Shown here: piece after piece, positions 9,395 to 39,900 of the stretch
Layout of the letters: each line of letters starts with the position of its first letter
Position numbering within the stretch: the stretch's first letter is position 1
Origin: Parvularia atlantis
Taxonomy: Eukaryota
Direction: 5' to 3'
Assembly (NCBI GenBank): GCA_943704415.1
Contig: CALSCO010000429.1
Span: 1-41,544 of the forward strand
DNA: 41,544 bases
The notes under the pieces: model-generated
Databases searched by the model: none
Seen by the model: the letters and a program-made list of their open reading frames with translations, nothing else
What the model was told of the DNA's origin: nothing
Program-made: the position numbers and the translations under genes

Positions 9395-10977
9395 TTAATG
9401 TTGACCGGGAAAGGCAGACGCGGCAGGTGAGTCGAAACGCCCACCTTGAACTCGACTCAAATCGGCGGCCCGGGCCAGAAAACTGCCACTGGCAGGTCGA
9501 GCGTCAGCGGTACCGCCAAAGGGCGACGACTGAGAAAATACGAAGGGCGCCGAGAAAGCGAAGCCGCCTGAGCCACTGGGGAAGTTCATCGGCCGCGGCG
9601 GTGCCGGCGTCGCTGCAACGCCGAACGGAGATACCGACGTCGTTGTAATGTTGCCCAGCTTGCTGGCGTCTGCGTTCAAGATATCGGCCAGGCGAGGCTG
9701 CCACCCAAACGAGACGGCCGTCGTCGTCTGCACCAGCGGCTTGTCGTCGATGCGTTCGAGCTGAAGCGCGTCCACGCGCGTCAGCAGCTGCTCGCGCGAC
9801 TTGGCCGACCGGAGAGACACATCGTCCGTCAGTGCGGCCGCCACCGCCCGCGCCCGCTCGATGTGGTCCAGCGTCAGCAGCAGCGCGTCCTTCTGCTCCA
9901 GTAGCGCCTTGATGTCGGCCGTGAGGGCCATGTGCACCTCGTTCTCGAGCTCGCGCTTGCGGTTGCGCAGTTCGGCCACCTTCTGCTCAAGCGGCTCGAT
10001 AAGGGGCAGAAAGCAGTCGGTGATGCTCTTGAAGACCTTGCCCTTGTGCTCCTCAAGCTGCCGCAGCGCAGCTTCAACCGCGTCGATGGCAGCCTGGACC
10101 TTCCACTGCTGCGGCTCGAGCGCGCTGCTGAGCGAGGCGATGGCCGCGCGCTGCTTCTCGAGGCCGTCGGCCAGGGCGATGAACGGATGCGCGGCGTGCG
10201 GCGCAGTGGCACAGTCGGCACAGGCCAGGTGGTCGCATCGATCGCAGTACAGGGTCGCACGGTTGGCCGGGTGCGCGCGGCACATCAGGCCCATCGGTGC
10301 CGCGCCGGGCTTGGCCGTCACGACGTGGTCCCGCGTTGCCTTGGCGCGCTGGTGCGCCCGGGCATCCTCGTCGCACAGGTCCATGGCGCACGTCTCGCAG
10401 CAGTGCGTCGCAGGCGCCTCCTCGCAGGTCGCACAGACAACCGTCACGCTCGCCGCGCTGGCCACCACGGGCTCAAGCAGGTCGGCGCGGGAGAACTCGG
10501 CGTGGCAGTACGTCAGGCCGAGCAGGTACAGGCACTTGCGCGGCTTCTCCTTCGTCTTGTGCACGCACACCGCGCAGATCGGGTGCAGGCATGGCGTGCG
10601 GCCCGCATCCGCGCCGAGCACCTCCAGGCAAAACGGACACGCTGCGCCATGCACGCAGTGAGCGAGCGCGTGCATCGGCCGCGAGACGCGCGCGCACCCG
10701 GTGGCTCGTCGCTCTCGACCTCGGGCGCAGGCGCAGGCAAGGGCACGGGCGCCGCGATGCCCGGCAGGAGCGACGTGACGAGCGCGGCCACGGGCGGCGT
10801 GACCATCGGCGGCGGCGTGACCATCGGTGGGCCGGACGACGTGCCGACGATGCGCGACGGCAGCGGCGGCTGCGGCGACGTGGCCGTGCGTGCGGGGCCG
10901 CTGGTGGGCGTCCCTATGCGCGGCATCGGCGCGCGCGCGCTCGTGTCGCCCACGTCGACGGACGCGAAGCGGCGCAT
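9395..10977 (-). CDS. TRIM/RBCC-like protein: Pro-rich N-terminus, RING-like, B-box1, B-box2, coiled coil; one intron 10642-10697
   Basis: CPFC...TPCLHPICAVC (RING-like); CATCEEAPATHCCETCAMDLCDEDARAHQRAKATRDH (B-box1); CRAHPANRATLYCDRCDHLACADC...HAAH (B-box2); heptad-rich region follows. The GTGCGC...CTCAC...GCAG intron joins ORF 10513-10977 in frame. Start codon uncertain. Confidence 0.8.
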
Positions 10978-11892
10978 GGACTGCGCAAAGTGACTCTTCG
11001 TTCAGCATTTGCTCTGAGAGGCATGCATCCCCTTCGACTGCAGCTGTCGCCAGTGCCCGCGCGCCTTTGACACCGAGCGCGGCCTCGCCGTGCACGTCGG
11101 CCACAAGCACCCGATGTTCTCGCGGTCGCCGGGCGCCGGTCGAGCGGACGCGACGCGCGGGACCGGTGCTGCGCAACGCACTGCACCGAGCGCGTCGGGC
11201 GTGCGCGGCGACGGCGTAAGTGGCGACGGCGCGGGCGCGGACGTGGGCGAGAGTATCGGCGTGGCGTGCTCGTTGTGCGGGCAGATGCTTGTCAACAGGC
11301 ACGTCGTGGTCATTCACGAGGCCCGTATCCACCGTCGACCCGGGGCGTCGTCGTGGTCAACGCCCACAGCGACTACCACCGCGAAACCTATGCGCTTCAC
11401 CTGCGCTGCTCAGCGCCGCCGTCGAGCGCATCCGCTTCGCCGTCAAGGGCGCGCTGCTGTGCTTCGCCAAGCATGTGCGTGCGCGCGCATTGTTGGTGCT
11501 CGATCTGCACTGCGCGCTCTTTGTTGCGCTACCTCAGCTGCGGTTTTTCGAGGCGGCTCTGCGGCAGCGTCGCGATGCGTCGCTTCAAGCTGACGGACAT
11601 CTTGGACGTGCTGGACCCGATCCTGGGAGCGGACTGGTGGACCGCGGACGCAGACGACCAGCGGCTGATGCACTACATGCGCACGGTCAACCGCCTGTAC
11701 GACTGGCACTTCTCGCTCAACCTCAAGTTTGCCATCTCCGACCGCGTCTTCCACGAGCAACAGACCGACGGAGCCGCGCTAGCGCCACGCCGCTACGCCC
11801 GCGGTGAGTTCATCATGTCGTTCTGTGCAACGGCATGCGCCCGTCGCACCAACCGTGATCCTGTGCCGCAGCCGACTGCACCGGAAGGTTGA
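10976..11892 (+). pseudogene. Degenerate gene with two C2H2 zinc fingers and an unknown C-terminal domain
   Basis: CRQCPRAFDTERGLAVHVGHKH (about 11045-11110) and CSLCGQMLVNRHVVVIHEARIH (about 11267-11332). Coding-like blocks continue in three frames (GVVVVNAHSDYHRETY; LLSAAVERIRFAVKGALLCFAKH; MRRFKLTDILDVLDPILGADWW...), which needs at least 3 frameshifts. Probable introns 10990-11043 and 11475-11537. Confidence 0.6.
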
Positions 11893-11900
11893 AAGTAACT

Positions 11901-13123
11901 TCAGACACGAATAGAAACATGGTGGGTGGTGAGAGTAGGGCGGGGAGGGGGCCTGTACAGCAGCCTGTTCTCCTTCTCCATCGTCTTGAGCACGGCCGAC
12001 GCCCCGCTGCCGCCGCCCCGTGTGGTGTGATGGAAGTAAAACTGGACGTGTTGGCGTGCCGCTCACCAACCTGTCAACAGAGCCGGTCGAGAAGAAGAAC
12101 CACCGAGCCGCGCGCAGGTGCGGAGGTGGTCGGGCAGATGCGCAGCGAGGGCGTGGCGCCCGGGTAGCCGCCCTCCGCTGCGCTGCCCGTGCGCTCGGTC
12201 GACGCAGGCGCGGCCGTGTATGCATGTAAGGAACTTGCGCACGTTGACCTGGCCGCAGCGACGTCGGCAAAAGCAAGCAGCCGCGCACCAGCATGAGTGC
12301 GCACCTCCGCCTACGTGGTCGCGTCGAGGATAGGCACGACGTGCGCGAGGTGGGCGCGCGACTCCTCGGTCTGTGGCATTCGTCAGTGTTCATGCATCGC
12401 ACAACACGACCGGCGCTCACGCACGGGCATATCCTTGGCGCCCAGCGTGCTGTCGTCCTCGAAGTCGAGGCGCACGCGCTCGCCGGCAAAGTTGGCGTCG
12501 ATGCCCAGCAGCGTGGTGTCGTCCACGGCATTGCGCTCGCAGGACTCGTTGAACGCGCGCATGCGCTTCAGGCGGCTCTTCGGCGACTTGAGGGCCGAAA
12601 AGGGCTTCGACTTGCGCCTGGTGGCCTGCTTGCCGGCCGGGGCCGGCGTCCTGGCGGCGACGGGCGGGGGCGCGGGCGCGACCGGCACGGCGGGCATCCT
12701 CGCGACGCTCGCGGCGAGCAGCGGCAGGAGGAAGGCAGCCATCGCGGCGCCGGTGAGAGGCTGCTCAGCAGCGGCGAGCGTGACGGCGGGTGGAGGAAGC
12801 CGAGCCACGTGGCGCTCCAGCTGCTGGTCGTTGGGCAGCGGGAGCGGCGCGAGCGGCTGGCGCGGCTGCTTGGGCGGGCGGCCGCGCGGGCGACCGGTCG
12901 GCTTGTAGAGGCCCCACGCCAAGCAGGCGGTACAGATCGGCTTGTCACGCACGCGCTCCAGCACGTCGTCGGGCAGGTCGCGGCGGGTGAGCACGGCCGC
13001 GGTCGCCTTGTAATACTTGCCGTGACCGCGGCAGGTCGCCGCACCGGCGCACGTTGGTGCCGGCACGCCGGCCGACGCAAACGCGCACAGCACAGCTTCG
13101 TCGCAGTGCGCAGCGTTCTCCAT
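11901..13123 (-). mobile_element. Internally deleted, decayed RAG1/Transib-like transposase gene
   Basis: N-terminal Cys-rich region ending ICTAC; AT-hook GRPRGRPPK; basic helix KPFSALKSPKSRLKRMR; introns 12371-12424 and 12249-12304; in-frame TAG 12313-12311. C-terminal remnants ATPSLRI..DHL.HL, inverted GVPLTNLSTEPVEKKNH, then HVQFYFHHTTRGGG...AVLKTMEKENRLLY. No terminal inverted repeats identified. Confidence 0.62.
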
Positions 13124-13289
13124 CTATGCGCGCCCGATCAGTGCAGATCCTGTTCAGGGTTTCCGCGAGGCAACACACCAGGTTCGTTCGACGCGGCGCG
13201 CAACGGCGAACACGACCAGCGCAACGGAAAGCGCGGCCGAAAATTCCTAACAAGTCATTGCCAATGTGGAAGCGACTGAAACACGCCTC

Positions 13290-13355
13290 CAGCCAATCAG
13301 GGCCGAGCGGGCTGATGACGTCACGGCGCATGACGTGATGCTCACTGATTGGCTG
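13290..13355. promoter_or_regulatory. Probable bidirectional promoter: inverted CCAAT boxes flanking CRE-like sites
   Basis: CAGCCAATCAG (13290-13300) and its exact reverse complement CTGATTGGCTG (13345-13355) enclose TGACGTCA (13316-13323) and TGACGTGA (13331-13338); lies between divergent ATGs at 13123 and 13501. Confidence 0.6.
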
Positions 13356-13427
13356 CTTCCGAAAAAGGCTATTTGCCGGAAAACGCGGCGCCGCACGCCA
13401 CCGTGACGGACGGCGCCACACAGACGG

Positions 13428-13499
13428 CAGCAGCAAGCAGCAAGCAGCGAGCAGCAAGCAGCAAGCAGCAAGCAGCAAGCAGCAAGCAGCAAGCAGCAG
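13428..13499. repeat. Heptamer tandem repeat (CAGCAAG)n immediately 5' of the ZNF598 ATG
   Basis: About 10 units, one variant CAGCGAG. Confidence 0.92.
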
Positions 13500-13500
13500 G

Positions 13501-16500
13501 ATGTCGACGGCCACGTGCCTCGTGTGCACCGAGCCCGTGCGCTTCTTCTCGGTCGGCCCGTGCAACCACCGCGAGGTCTGCCACCGCTGCTCGCTCCGGT
13601 TGCGCGGGCTGTACGGCAACGCGGCCTGCTCCTACTGCAAGGCGCGGCGCGCGCGCGTGGTCGTTCGCGACGATGATAGTGCTGACGAGGCGACGGCGCC
13701 GCACAGACAAAGCAGCCGCAGGTCGTGTTCACGAGCGACCCGGCCGCGCCGTTCGACGAACTGCTGACGCGGCGGTACGCGACGTGGCGCAAGCTCAACG
13801 TGCTGTGCGAGACGAGCGAGCTGCTGCAGGCGCGCTGCCGGCGCTCGGATCGGCCGTGATCGGGACGCTGACGGATGCGGCGATGCAGGAGGTCACCGAC
13901 CTGCTACGCTTCAAGTGCCCGCTCGACACCTGCGGCAGCATCTTCGACGCGCGCGGCGAGGCCGAGCGGCACATCCGCAAGGACCATCCCGGGCTGGCGC
14001 TGTGGTGCGGCGCCGCGTGCGGCTGGCGCGATGCCGTGGCCGACAAGAGTGCGCAGCAACGTCTGCGTCGACAACCGCAAAGTCTTCTTCAACGAGCACA
14101 AGCTGTACACGCGCGCGCAGCTCGACAAGCACTACCGCCAAGGCGACGACGACGACCCCGCATTCCGCGGGCATGAGCGCTGCAGCTTCTGCCGCCTGAC
14201 GTTCTACGGCAAGGATGAGCTGTACAACCACCTCGAGAAGGAGCACTTCTACTGCTTCCTCTGCCACGGCAACGGCGTGCACAACCAGTACTACGCCGAC
14301 TACGCCAACCTCGTGCGTCGTGCGGCCCCCGTCGCTGTGTGTGCACGCAAATGCAAGCAACGCACTAACGCATAGCGTCGAGCAGGAGCAGCACTTTGAC
14401 GAGGACCACTTTCTGTGCCCGTACGCCGAGTGCCGCGAGAAGGCGTTCATCGCGTTTGCCACGGAGATCGGCCTGAAGAACCACCTGGTGCGCGCTGTCG
14501 CACGGCGTGCCTTTGCTGGTGGCCTCATGCGAGCGCGCCGCGCAGGCATCCGAGCACCTGAAGGACCGCAAACTCTCGCGCTCGCAGCAGAAGCAGTACC
14601 GCACGATCCAGCTCGACTTCAACTACGGCGGGCAGGGTGGGCAGCCCGCCGCGGCAACGAGTGGCAGCGGCAGTCGCGTGCGTGTCTGCGCGGTGTGGTC
14701 AACCGGCACGCAGCTGCTTAAAAACACGCGCAAATGGCAGCAACAGCGCGAGGAGCGGCCGCACCGGGAGCGGCAGCCGCGCGAGCCTCGCCCGCAGCCG
14801 GCTCAGCCCACCCAGCCTGCGCAGCCTGCGCCGTCGGCCCGGCCGCCGCCGCCCCAGCCTGCCGCAGGCGCGTCCAGCAGCCGGCCGACGTCGGCGAGCA
14901 AGAACCCGTACGTTTACCAGCGCGCGGCACCCGCCGCGGCCACGCCCGATGCAGGAAGCAGTGGCAGCAGTCCGAGCGGCTACCGGGCCTCGGCGCGCCC
15001 GGAGACGCAGGCGGCGCTCGAAGAGATCGACGGGCTCGATGTCGGCGACGACGACGACGAGGACGAGGACGACAGCGGCGTTGTGCTCGTTGCCGAGGGG
15101 CAGGACGTCGACGCGGCGCTGGCCGAGCAGGCGCGCGTGGAGCAGGCGCAGCGCGAGCAGCGTGAGCGTGAGCAGCGGCGCGTCGCCTCCCGCAAGTCGT
15201 CCGAACATCGCGGCATTGTCAGCGACGTCGATCAGCGCCTCTCGTTCGCCGACGGCAGTTCTGCCGCGACCGCGTCGTCCGCCCGCCCGCCGCCAGGGTT
15301 CGAGGGCCGCTGCACGCCCAGCACCGACGGGTCTGGCCGGCCACCACCGGGCTTCGGCGGTGCTCAGCAGGCCGCGCCGCGCCCCGTGTCTGCAGCGGCG
15401 GCGCGCATGGACGACCTCAAGCGCCGCGCGCCGTCGTCGTTCACGCAGCTTTCGTCGCGACCGGCCAACGGCGCCAGCGCTGCCGCAGGTGCGGGCGGCC
15501 TCCTGCATGCGCACCGCGCCTGACCGGGCGTCGACGCAGTAGACGACTTTTCGCCGTGGGAGCAGCTCGGCCGCGTGCCGTCGCCGCCCGACCGCGTGCG
15601 CTCGCCACCGGGCGTCGACGACATGCAGCCTACGCAGGGCGCGAACGGCCCCTCGCCGAGCAAGCTACAGGTGCGCTGCGTCGCTCAATGCGCGTGCGTG
15701 CTGCTTGCTAACGCGACAAGTGCCAGATCGACCTCAAGTCCGGCAGCCACGTTTCGGCGTTTGCCTCGATGAACGAGCTCGACCCGCTCGCGCAGCGGTG
15801 CGGCCGCCGCGACGCACATGCTGGTGGCACTCACGCGCCGGGCACAGGCGTCAGCGCGACTTTTTGCTGCAGCTGCAAAGCGTCTTCGGCGAGGACCGCG
15901 ACAAGTTTGACAACTTCCGCGCCATGACGCGCGCCTTCCGCGCCGGGTCGATCTCGGCACCCGCGTTCTACGAGTGCGCCGAGCCGCTGCAGTGCCGAGC
16001 AATGTGCTGCTGACATGCTGGCGCAGGCAGTGGCTGCAGTACGTCGGCCCGCAGGCTGAGGCGCTCTTCCAGCAGCTGGTTGATCTCGTGCCCGACGAGG
16101 CCTTGCGGCAGCAACTCGTGACCGCGCACCGAAACTACAGCCGGCCGGCGCCGCCGACGCAGACGCAGACACAGAAGCAGGCGGGCGGGTCACGCGCATC
16201 GTCGTCGTCGTCGTCGTCGTCGTCGTCCGGACCGTGGGCGACAGCGCCGCGCACCGCTGGCAGCAGTTTCGCCGCGGCCGCTGCCAAGGACAAGTGCGCG
16301 CGCCCCGGGCGTGTGCGCTACGCCGGGCTTACCTGCCCGGCCCGCACGCAGGGGCAAGGCGCGCGTGCTCGTGATCAAGGCCAAGGCGCCCAGCGGCAAC
16401 CCGAGCTTCGCTGGTGCGTGCAAAAATAGACGCGCGTGCGAGGTGTGCTCGCTGATCTGCACGCGCACTGTTGCAGCGTCGCACATGAGCGTGTGGGACG

Positions 16501-36947: not shown

Positions 36948-39900
36948 TCACTTCTTCTTGAACTGGCGCACGGCCTGCTCCAGCTCGCGCACCTTGGCGT
37001 GGCCCTTGCCGTACGCCTTGGTCATCAGTTCGAGCGCGCGCACGAGGTGCGTCTGCGCCGCGGCGCGGTCGTTGACCTTCTGGTGCATCACCGCTGCGGC
37101 GTAGTGGCTCTCGCCGAGCGCCGCGGGCGCATTGTCAATCTTGCTGGCCTCGCGCATGGCCAGCTCGGCCTGCGCACGTGCGCGTGAGCAGCGCCACGTC
37201 GCACAAAAGACAGCAGCGCACCTCAAGCAGCGGCAGGGCGCGCGACAGGTCGCCCATGCTGCGGTACACCTGCCACATGGCGTTGTACGTCGCGATGGTC
37301 TCCGGGTGGCTCTGGCCCAGCAGCGTGTGCCGGATCGCTAGCGCGGCCTCGAGGCACTCGAGAGCGCTCGGGAAGAACTTCATCGTGTTGTAGACGGCCG
37401 CGAGGGACGCGTGCGCCGCGGCCGTGCCTGGGCTCTGCTCGCCGTAGGTCGCGCGCTGCACGGCCAGGCCCTTCTGGTGCAGCTCGAGCGCGCGCGGGTG
37501 GTCGCCCAGGTGGCTCAGCGTGTCGGCCACGGCAGCGTAGGCCGCGACGAGCTCGGGGTGGTTGTCGCTCAGGATCAGCCGCTTGATCTCGAGCGCGCGC
37601 TCGTACAGCTCCAGCGCCCGGTCGGCCCGGTCCATGCGGTCGTAGACGGTCGCAAGCGTGTGGTACGACGACGCCGTCACCCGGTGGTTCTCGCCCAGTT
37701 GTGCGCGCCGGATCGACAGGCACCGCTCGTACGCCGCGGCCGCGGCCTCGAGCCTGCCGGCCTCAAACAGCTGGCTGCCCTTGCGCACGAGCAGGAACGA
37801 CTCGGTCAGGAGCACACGGGCGTCCTCCTTGTCGAACGAGGTCGCGGTCATGATCTGCGCACAAGGCGGTCAGCGGGCAGCGCGGTGAAAGGGGCAGCGG
37901 CACACGCAAACGCACCGCCTGCGCGCGATCCGCGTCCTGCACCGCCGTCGCCCAGGCCTGCACAAGCACGTGGTCGGCAAGCGACAGCGTCGCGTCCTTC
38001 TGCACCGTCGACGCCACGCGCCCGTACAGGTCCGCCAGCTGCGCCTCGCTCCAGCGTGCGCGCAGCAGGCCCCAGCCCTGACCCACGCCCAGCGCCTCAA
38101 ACAGCGCCATGAGCACCGTCGGCGCGAACGGCAGCTCAAACAGCGCGCGGTTGATGTGCGCCCGCGCCGCGTCCACAAACGCCAGGCCCGATGCGACGTT
38201 GCCCGTGTTGTACAGCCAGACAGCCTGGGCAAGGCGGTTGATGTAGTACAGCTGGAACCGCTCAATCGCGACGCTGTCGCACACCAGGTCGTCGCACCCC
38301 GGCACGCTCGTCACGCGCACGTGCTGCCCGTCGCGCCGCACCACGCCGTCCGCCAGCAGCAGCTTGAGCGCGGCGCGTGTGCTCCCGTTTGGCAGCTGCT
38401 TGCCGATCACGTGTGTCCCAATCACCGCCATCGCCGCGTCGACCTCAAACGGCGCGCGGAACACCGACAGCGCGCGCCACATCTGCAGCTGCGGCGGCGG
38501 CGTCACCTCGGCCAGGTACCGCTTCAAGCGCGCCCCGTTGATCACGGCCTCGAGCCGGCCGGGGATGCCCGACTTGGCAGTAGCCGCCGCAGATGTCAGA
38601 ACGCGCAGCACCTTGGCCAGCTCGGCCGCAGGCTCCGCACCGAGCGCGTCCACCGCCACGGCAAACACGCGCTGGCCCGACACGGACGCGGCCGCGCGGC
38701 TCGTCACAAGCACGGTGAGCAGCGCCTTGCGCGACGCCGCCGTCGCCTTGAGAAGCCACTGCGACGCCGACGCCGACGACACGCCCGTGTCCATGTTGTC
38801 GACGACGATGAGCGTGCGGTGCGCCAGCGCGGCGCTCCAGCTGACCAGGGCGAACGCGTCGCCGTGGTAACCCGCCGCGTCGGCGCGCTCGAGCACGGTG
38901 TACGGCACGTCCTCGGCCGGGATGCCGGCCGCCTGCACAAAGTAGACGCGCTGGAACTCCGCCATCTCTAGCGCGCGCCGCGCCACCGCCGCGGCCACCG
39001 CCGATTTGCCCGCGCCCGCCTCGCCGTGGAGCCAGATGACGGACGCTAGCCGCAGCGCACGTCAGCACAGTCGCACGCACAATGCTCGCGCCACGAGCGC
39101 CGCACCGGTGAGCAGGCTCTTGCTGACCGCGGCAACGGTCGCGTCGCGCCCGACAAAGCTGGCCGGCACGACGGGAATGTCGCGCAGGGCCATGACATGG
39201 TGCGGCGCGGTCAGGCCCGTGCGCTTGCCGAAGACGCTCTCAAACAGCTCCGAGACGCGCCCGGTCGGCGGCGGGTGGAACACGCGCGCGACCGTCGGCG
39301 CCGAGACGGTCCGTCCGTCGCTCGTGAGCAGGTCACGCAGCGTCATGCGGTTCTCGGGCGTGAGCAGCTTGGACGCCGAGATGCCTGTGCGCGCGCGCTG
39401 AGCATAGAGCGCCTACCAGCGCCGCGGCCGCGCACCCTCGTCCACGTCGATGAAGCGCATAACGTGCGCCAGGAACGAGTCCCACTCGGGCCGCTCGTTC
39501 TGGAAGTGCCGCCGCCAGAGCACGCGCACCCACGTCTGCGCCATGATCAGGTGAGGCCCAAAGTCAAGCTTGGACTGCATGCCCTCGACTTGCACGCGCG
39601 CCGCCGCGTTGGCGTCCTGCAGCTCGTCGCGCAGCTCGTCGACGTCCATGTGCAGCTCCGCCGCCAGCTCGGCCAGCTCGCCCGCCTTGGCCGCCGAGAG
39701 CACGTCGTCCACGCCGCCGCGCGCAAAGAGGCCCTCGGTCACCAGCACCGCGGCGTCCTCAAACGTGCTCACGCGTTTCTGGGCGGGCGCGGTCGTGAGA
39801 CATCGCGCCACGCAAAGCGCCAGCAACCACGCACCAGCTTGAGCGCTGGCAGCAGAGGCTCTAGGGTTGACTGCAGCTCGGCCGGCAGCCGCAACCACAC

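What the first reader, a model, noticed from the sequence alone, without database searches (positions are those of the whole stretch)
11901..13123. Relic of a RAG1/Transib-like transposase in a protist genome
Seen: after splicing two host-type introns, the minus-strand gene reads Cys-rich domain (..ICTAC), AT-hook GRPRGRPPK, KPFSALKSPKSRLKRMR, HLAHVVPILDAT, a stop, then (with single-base indels) RKFLHAYTAAP...GGYPGATPSLRI..DHL.HLRA, GVPLTNLSTEPVEKKNH, HVQFYFHHTTRGGG..SAVLKTMEKENRLLY. Known: RAG1 has a GGRPR AT-hook followed by a basic helix in its nonamer-binding domain, and ends its core with ITNYFHKTLAHVPE...GAWASEGNESGNK (Zn ligands H937/H942, catalytic E962 in mouse numbering). TPxLxI..xHxP and LSTEPVEKKNH fit that spacing. 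Inference: a non-autonomous derivative in which the central region carrying the two catalytic Asp residues was deleted near 12315. The introns imply long residence in this lineage.
Basis: partly seen in the sequence, partly recalled or inferred. Interest (0 to 1): 0.85.

Follow-up and report, generated by a model that had tools for sequence, protein, structure and literature searches.

The report
Broken RAG1/Transib-type transposase gene relic
A gene in a GC-rich eukaryote is likely the dead remnant of a cut-and-paste enzyme related to the antibody-gene recombinase RAG1: its front end is an intact reading frame shared with a few environmental relatives, its catalytic middle is missing and its tail is scrambled; such relatives are already known from a protist.

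Summary
The minus-strand gene has an open 233-codon exon 1 (four conserved Cys, AT-hook, basic helix), two ~55-nt GT-AG introns, a stop at 12313, and a tail broken by two single-base shifts and a ~50-bp inversion. Exon 1 has five environmental homologs among 1.84 billion representatives (best E 3e-45); three end their similarity at the same intron. After re-inversion the tail gives His-x19-Glu, the spacing of mouse RAG1 H942/E962 and of four RAG1L/Transib proteins printed by Tao et al. 2022, with 6-10 identical residues in 33 columns (hand count). The two diagnostic motifs occur once each in the window, about 100 bp apart; 0 of 300 simulated windows showed this. About 370 residues holding both catalytic Asp appear deleted. 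Limits: no Pfam, PDB or fold hit to RAG1/Transib, no full-length paralog (no genome held), no TIR pair or TSD; the first Zn-ligand His is Arg, the AT-hook lies 87 residues from the helix, and the His/Glu pattern is shared by the wider CMCT clade. Verdict: likely an inactive relic of an uncatalogued RAG1/Transib-type family, not filed as Transib proper. RAG1-like elements in a protist are already published.

The parts
12425..13123 (-). Exon 1, 233 open codons: Cys-rich domain (C13, C25, C64, C67 kept in homologs), AT-hook, Pro/Ala linker, basic helix and beta-hairpin
12869..12895 (-). AT-hook-like GRPRGRPPK
   Evidence: sequence; Pfam AT_hook E 0.94, below its cut-off
12557..12607 (-). Basic helix resembling the first nonamer-binding-domain helix of Transib proteins
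   Evidence: model helix 181-197; by-eye likeness to proteins
12371..12424 (-). Predicted intron 1, 54 nt, position shared with homologs
12305..12370 (-). Predicted exon 2 with in-frame TAG at 12313-12311; likely junction of the large internal deletion
   Evidence: deletion inferred from CthTransib_0091
12249..12304 (-). Predicted intron 2, 56 nt
   Evidence: signals only
12105..12248 (-). Decayed exon 3, first part: single-base shifts near 12230 and 12132; TPSLR at 12154 (Arg in place of the first Zn His); second His at about 12128
12053..12104 (+). Inverted ~50-bp segment carrying S-T-E-x2-E-K-K-N-H, with the likely E962-equivalent Glu at 12089
11901..12053 (-). Decayed exon 3, tail, with the LK-x2-EK-x-NR motif; stop at 11903-11901
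13262..13268 (-). Unpaired heptamer-like CACATTG, 145 nt upstream of the ATG; possibly an eroded 5' end, possibly chance (1 of 10 CACA-N-TG sites in the window)

Best explanation
This is likely an inactive, internally deleted copy of a DDE transposase gene of the RAG1/Transib type, from a small uncatalogued family of intron-bearing elements. Shown: exon 1 is open and homologous to five environmental proteins; a stop follows; the tail is frameshifted and partly inverted. Inferred: the parent enzyme bound element ends through the Cys domain, AT-hook and basic helix and cut DNA with a D-D-E site braced by a C2H2 zinc site, as RAG1 and Transib do; a deletion of roughly 370 codons removed both Asp and the CxxC pair and left a stop at the junction; the orphaned tail then gathered two single-base shifts, a His-to-Arg change and an inversion, and the element ends eroded. 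The locus would now neither cut DNA nor move; at most it makes a 252-residue DNA-binding fragment.
For: Homologs: 5 of 1.84 billion representatives at E<=0.001, 40-58% identity; three (P0001, P0005, P0006) end their similarity at the intron-1 donor and two (P0002, P0004) lose similarity part-way as broken copies would. His-x19-Glu equals mouse H942-E962 (PMC4914335) and FcoRAG1L, RroRAG1L, CthTransib_0091 and _0066; canonical Transibs have 20 and AanRAG1L 15 (hand count). Identities in the 33 columns from TP to the Asn after the Glu: 8 (Cth0091), 9 (Cth0066), 7 (Rro), 6 (Fco), 10 with one gap (ApsTransib); a second block gives 5 of 11 with Cth0091, three residues further out (hand counts). Motifs come in the family's order: basic helix, strand, helix, then TP..H, Glu motif, EK-x-NR. 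Co-occurrence null 0 of 300. GC3 0.85-0.90 in every piece read in its proposed frame, as in a host gene (0.84). Host ORFs of 509 (spliced) and 856 codons are unbroken, so the lesions are unlikely to be assembly noise.
Against: No RAG1 (or any transposase) Pfam hit for the pieces, no PDB sequence hit. The right-frame tail found no relative (0 of 6 candidates). No full-length relative was obtained, so the link between the two halves rests on their adjacency here. First Zn His is Arg; hook and helix are 87 residues apart; no TIR pair or TSD. The 19-residue spacer is one of several that the inversion allows. The H(3-4)H plus Glu pattern is shared by all CMCT lineages (PMC12730594). Exon 1 is free of frame breaks, which pure decay explains poorly (P 0.006-0.08).
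Confidence: 0.6

Rival explanations
1. Same origin, but the truncated 252-residue product is kept by selection as a DNA-binding protein (a repressor of the element family or a host-recruited regulator), while the catalytic tail decays in its 3' UTR.
For: Homologs align to exon 1 in a single frame over its length, with only in-frame length changes, and the four conserved Cys are intact, whereas 2-4 lesions fall in the 296 nt after exon 2: chance that all fall there 0.079 (2), 0.022 (3), 0.006 (4). CCAAT and TGACGTCA motifs lie upstream.
Against: The region was picked because it has an ORF; lesion counts are small; exon 1 lacks eight residues present in P0001, P0002 and P0006 inside the helix region; the upstream motifs may serve the divergent ZNF598 gene; no transcript or dN/dS data; the exact ORF is not in the protein collection.
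Confidence: 0.22
2. The relic comes from another CMCT lineage (EnSpm, Mirage, Chapaev, Plavaka, ESTA, Lanisha or an unnamed sister group), not from the RAG1/Transib branch.
For: All these lineages share H(3-4)H before the last Glu. A Cys-rich N-terminal finger is described for Chapaev, TransibSU and RAG1 but not for canonical Transib (PMC4411706). I compared the tail only with RAG1L/Transib sequences.
Against: S-x-E-x2-E-x2-N is present in every RAG1L and canonical Transib protein whose end I read, and EK-x-N plus EK-x-NR match CthTransib_0091.
Confidence: 0.12
3. Exon 1 is an ordinary host DNA-binding gene family, and the tail motifs are chance, an unrelated inserted fragment or an assembly chimera.
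For: No database search links either half to a transposase; reads could not be examined.
Against: Motif order, spacing, coding-like GC3 and the 0 of 300 null; same-strand continuity through host-type splice signals; broken homologs suggest a repeat family.
Confidence: 0.06

Closest known systems
CthTransib_0091 / _0066 (root 'bacterial Transib' clade of Tao et al. 2022, PMC9435367)
   Same: TP-x7-H, His-x19-Glu, EK-x-N, a downstream EK-x-NR block, and a basic RKS-(x)-KP-[FW]-S start of the DNA-binding helix with no GRP directly before it (hand comparison, 8-9 of 33 identical).
   Different: The window copy lacks about 370 residues of core, has Arg for the first His, no C-terminal Cys/His tail, and carries its own Cys domain, AT-hook and introns.
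Canonical (subgroup II) Transib transposases, e.g. ApsTransib_1266, EpuTransib_3173
   Same: YP-x(1-2)-TP-x-L before the His pair and P-x3-L-S-x-E-x2-E-x2-N around the Glu (10 of 33 with one gap); K-x-FS-x-rich basic helix.
   Different: Spacer 20 rather than 19; GRP sits a few residues before the helix, not 87; TIRs and 5-bp TSD (PMC1131882) not found here.
RAG1 and RAG1-like proteins (mouse RAG1; FcoRAG1L, RroRAG1L, AanRAG1L)
   Same: His-to-Glu spacer of 19 (mouse, Fco, Rro) and S-x-E-x2-E-x2-N; AanRAG1L has S-T-E as here.
   Different: Only 6-7 of 33 identical; no RING, no RAG2-like kelch partner (the convergent neighbour is a broken C2H2 gene); no Pfam RAG1 hit.

Membership tests
Transib / RAG1-like | Catalytic Glu in an S-x-E-x2-E-x2-N context, 19-20 residues after the last Zn His | tested here: met
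   Present on the inverted piece; spacer 19 for 5 of 117 workable inversion boundaries, including the shortest that keep the whole piece
Transib / RAG1-like | Two catalytic Asp and the CxxC zinc pair | tested here: not met
   No room for them between exon 2 and exon 3; read as deleted
Transib / RAG1-like | H-x4-H zinc ligands | tested here: not met
   Second His present, first position is Arg
Transib / RAG1-like | Profile or fold similarity to the RAG1 core | tested here: inconclusive
   Pieces of 17-41 residues gave no hit; exon-1 model pLDDT 51.7; the read-through tail could not be searched
Transib / RAG1-like | GRP AT-hook directly before the nonamer-binding helix | tested here: not met
   87 residues apart; CthTransib_0091 and AanRAG1L as printed also lack an adjacent GRP
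Transib / RAG1-like | CAC-starting terminal inverted repeats and 5-bp TSD | tested here: not met
   Scans of 10600-11960 against 13125-13520: no pair above background; one unpaired CACATTG
RAGL (ProtoRAG-type) | Linked RAG2-like kelch gene | tested here: not met
   Convergent neighbour scores C2H2 fingers only; no kelch family among 132 window ORFs
CMCT clade of DDE transposons | H(3-4)H followed by the last catalytic Glu | tested here: inconclusive
   One His and the Glu at the right spacing; the other His is Arg (definition: PMC12730594)
Transib / RAG1-like | Phylogenetic placement of a full-length transposase | not testable with these tools
   No genome held; no full-length relative recovered

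The most novel reading that the evidence does not exclude
An intron-bearing branch of RAG1/Transib-type transposons, close to the root clade so far reported only from bacterial bins, lives in a unicellular eukaryote, and this copy has been domesticated: the host keeps its 252-residue zinc-finger, AT-hook and nonamer-binding-like front end as a DNA-binding regulator inside a bidirectional promoter while the catalytic half has been deleted and scrambled.
Probability: 0.15. Interest if true: 0.6.

Novelty: new variant of a known kind. Interest (0 to 1): 0.33.

Why it matters
The relic itself does nothing catalytic. Its use is as a pointer: the exon-1 family has no Pfam match and only environmental members, and its tail resembles the root 'bacterial Transib' sequences on which a bacterial origin of RAG was argued (PMC9435367). 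An intact, intron-containing member from a eukaryote would test whether that root clade is really eukaryotic, and a selected truncated product would be a case of RAG1-type domestication outside animals.

Tried and rejected
Void results: the tail reference (protein 2), 9, 13, 18 and 26 was in the wrong frame (found); repeated in the right frame for Pfam, PDB and the protein search (61-63), not for the Atlas. Atlas on exon-1 residues 160-234: no usable hit. Profile A2 against the 5.8-billion set returned only 3 of its own members among 7,996 candidates of 110-522 residues; longer proteins were not searched with it. Metagenome scan with A2: 1 locus from 598 pattern matches in 45 of 64 parts, L001, a 21-residue Cys/AT-hook likeness only. 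Viral contigs: nothing for A2 (28), three motif patterns or the neighbour exon (83); one non-coding match. GTDB motif scan: 3 of 3 hits non-coding. AlphaFold model of exon 1 is low-confidence; Foldseek best E 1.9 (82) and VIA best Z 3.8 (102) are uninformative, and neither listed RAG1 or Transib. No second copy in the window. Idea that intron 2 is a duplicate of the exon-1 start (weak tblastn): rejected, the homolog profile does not score it. Idea that the plus-strand neighbour is the displaced catalytic core: rejected, its Cys/His spacing is that of two C2H2 fingers and the SGDG lies in a Gly-rich linker. A paper search for the VEKKNH motif found nothing. Earlier-finding look-ups by sequence and place were empty.

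Full report
Setting. The window is about 70% GC and holds ordinary eukaryotic genes (SPT6, WDR62-like, ZNF598, threonine-aldolase-like, B-box, TruD and others; 132 ORFs scanned, seven) with short introns. 'Protist' is an inference from this; no genome is held and reads could not be examined. The locus lies between two head-to-head host genes, a B-box gene starting near 10977 (minus) and ZNF598 starting at 13501 (plus).

Observation. The quoted peptides are all present. Exon 1 runs 13123-12425 without a stop. Two predicted introns of 54 and 56 nt have GTGCG...CAG ends like a 56-nt host intron. Exon 2 carries TAG at 12313-12311, so the spliced product is 252 residues. Downstream, one extra base near 12230 and one missing near 12132 shift the TPSLR segment, and a segment of about 50 bp is inverted. 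A clean inversion at 12053-12104 restores one frame from the second His to the stop at 11903; its ends are not unique (117 boundary pairs, spacers 8-21, five giving 19).

Family. phmmer of exon 1 against 1.84 billion representatives gave 5 hits (E 3e-45 to 2e-6); one more came from a cluster (P0006). All are unnamed or 'hypothetical' calls on contigs of 0.5-4 kb. Four Cys columns are kept (window C13, C25, C64, C67). P0001, P0005 and P0006 stop resembling the window at the intron-1 donor, so that intron is a family trait. P0002 and P0004 lose similarity part-way, as broken copies would. Their DNA could not be fetched, so whether any continues into a catalytic core is open. There is no second copy in the window.

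Kinship of the tail. No search linked a piece to a transposase: Pfam, PDB sequences, the 5.8-billion set with the 41-residue tail (0 of 6 candidates). My first tail searches (6 protein 2, 9, 13, 18, 26) used the wrong frame and are void. The assignment therefore rests on comparison by eye with proteins printed in the supplement of PMC9435367. His-x19-Glu matches mouse H942-E962 (PMC4914335), FcoRAG1L, RroRAG1L and both CthTransibs; the canonical Transibs shown have 20, AanRAG1L 15. In the 33 columns from TP to the Asn after the Glu I count 8 and 9 identities with the two CthTransibs, 7 and 6 with Rro and Fco RAG1L, and 10 (one gap) with ApsTransib. A further block gives 5 of 11 with CthTransib_0091. 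The basic helix of exon 1 and the short exon 2 line up loosely with the region before that protein's core; on that register about 370 residues, with both Asp, the CxxC and the D-x-L-H motif, are missing at the stop. The two motifs occur once each in the window and together in 0 of 300 simulated windows (patterns chosen post hoc). Each piece has GC3 of 0.85-0.90 in its proposed frame. The sub-clade cannot be fixed: the piece around the Glu is most like canonical Transib, the piece after it most like the Cth clade.

Against a strict filing. The first Zn His is Arg. The AT-hook is 87 residues from the helix. Scans for inverted ends and duplications found nothing above background; a lone CACATTG at 13268 is one of 10 such sites in the window. 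No RAG2-like gene is near. [quoted passage not shown] The exon-1 model is too poor to use (pLDDT 51.7). I therefore call it a relic of a RAG1/Transib-type enzyme, not a member of Transib or RAGL.

Mechanism. Inferred order: insertion of an intron-bearing element into a bidirectional promoter; internal deletion of the core with a stop at the junction; decay of the tail; loss of the ends. It cannot cut DNA. One oddity remains: exon 1 aligns to its homologs in one frame throughout while all lesions fall in the last 296 nt (P 0.079, 0.022 or 0.006 for 2, 3 or 4 lesions). This leaves room for a retained DNA-binding product, but ascertainment and small counts weaken it.

Literature. PMC9435367 (whole main text; supplement parts 1, 4, 13, 14 of 25 and two passage searches; 5 of 21 pages of its second PDF hold no readable text, so alignments there may bear on the clade assignment) reports an active RAGL element in the alga Aureococcus, RAG1L fragments in other early-branching eukaryotes, and Transibs in bacteria, fungi and plants. 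PMC10462144, PMC1131882, PMC12730594, PMC4914335 and PMC4411706 were seen as passages only. Eight searches (listings) showed no description of this exon-1 family, but the library is partial and Repbase Reports are not in it. Earlier AI notes list 31 similar findings in at least 11 genomes, including another deleted copy (unchecked), which suggests such elements are common in protists.

Verdict. Real feature, likely a dead RAG1/Transib-type transposase copy from an uncatalogued family; kinship supported by motifs, not by a profile or fold; modest interest (0.33), higher if an intact relative or selection on exon 1 is shown.

Noticed in passing
window 11022-11892 (+): A broken gene lies tail-to-tail with the relic: two C2H2-type fingers (Pfam zf-C2H2_4 E 0.0027), several frame breaks, predicted introns 11475-11537 and 11804-11871, and a 77-codon exon with no relative found. 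It may be a second gene of the same element.
   Followed up: partly
window 13270-13400: CCAAT-like boxes and a TGACGTCA palindrome sit between the relic and ZNF598, probably a shared promoter.
   Followed up: no
window 13429-13498: About ten tandem copies of a 7-nt unit just upstream of the ZNF598 start.
   Followed up: no
L001 2206-2316: A C-x2-C followed by an AT-hook as in exon 1, in an AT-richer contig with no other match to the family.
   Followed up: partly
window 37138-39061 (-): NACHT/AAA-like domain followed by TPR repeats, an NLR-like architecture.
   Followed up: no
PMC9435367 supplement: The 'bacterial' CthTransib contigs are short (3.2 and 4.6 kb), from uncultured bins, and were annotated with a eukaryotic gene finder that predicted introns; a eukaryotic source seems possible (my inference).
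   Followed up: no
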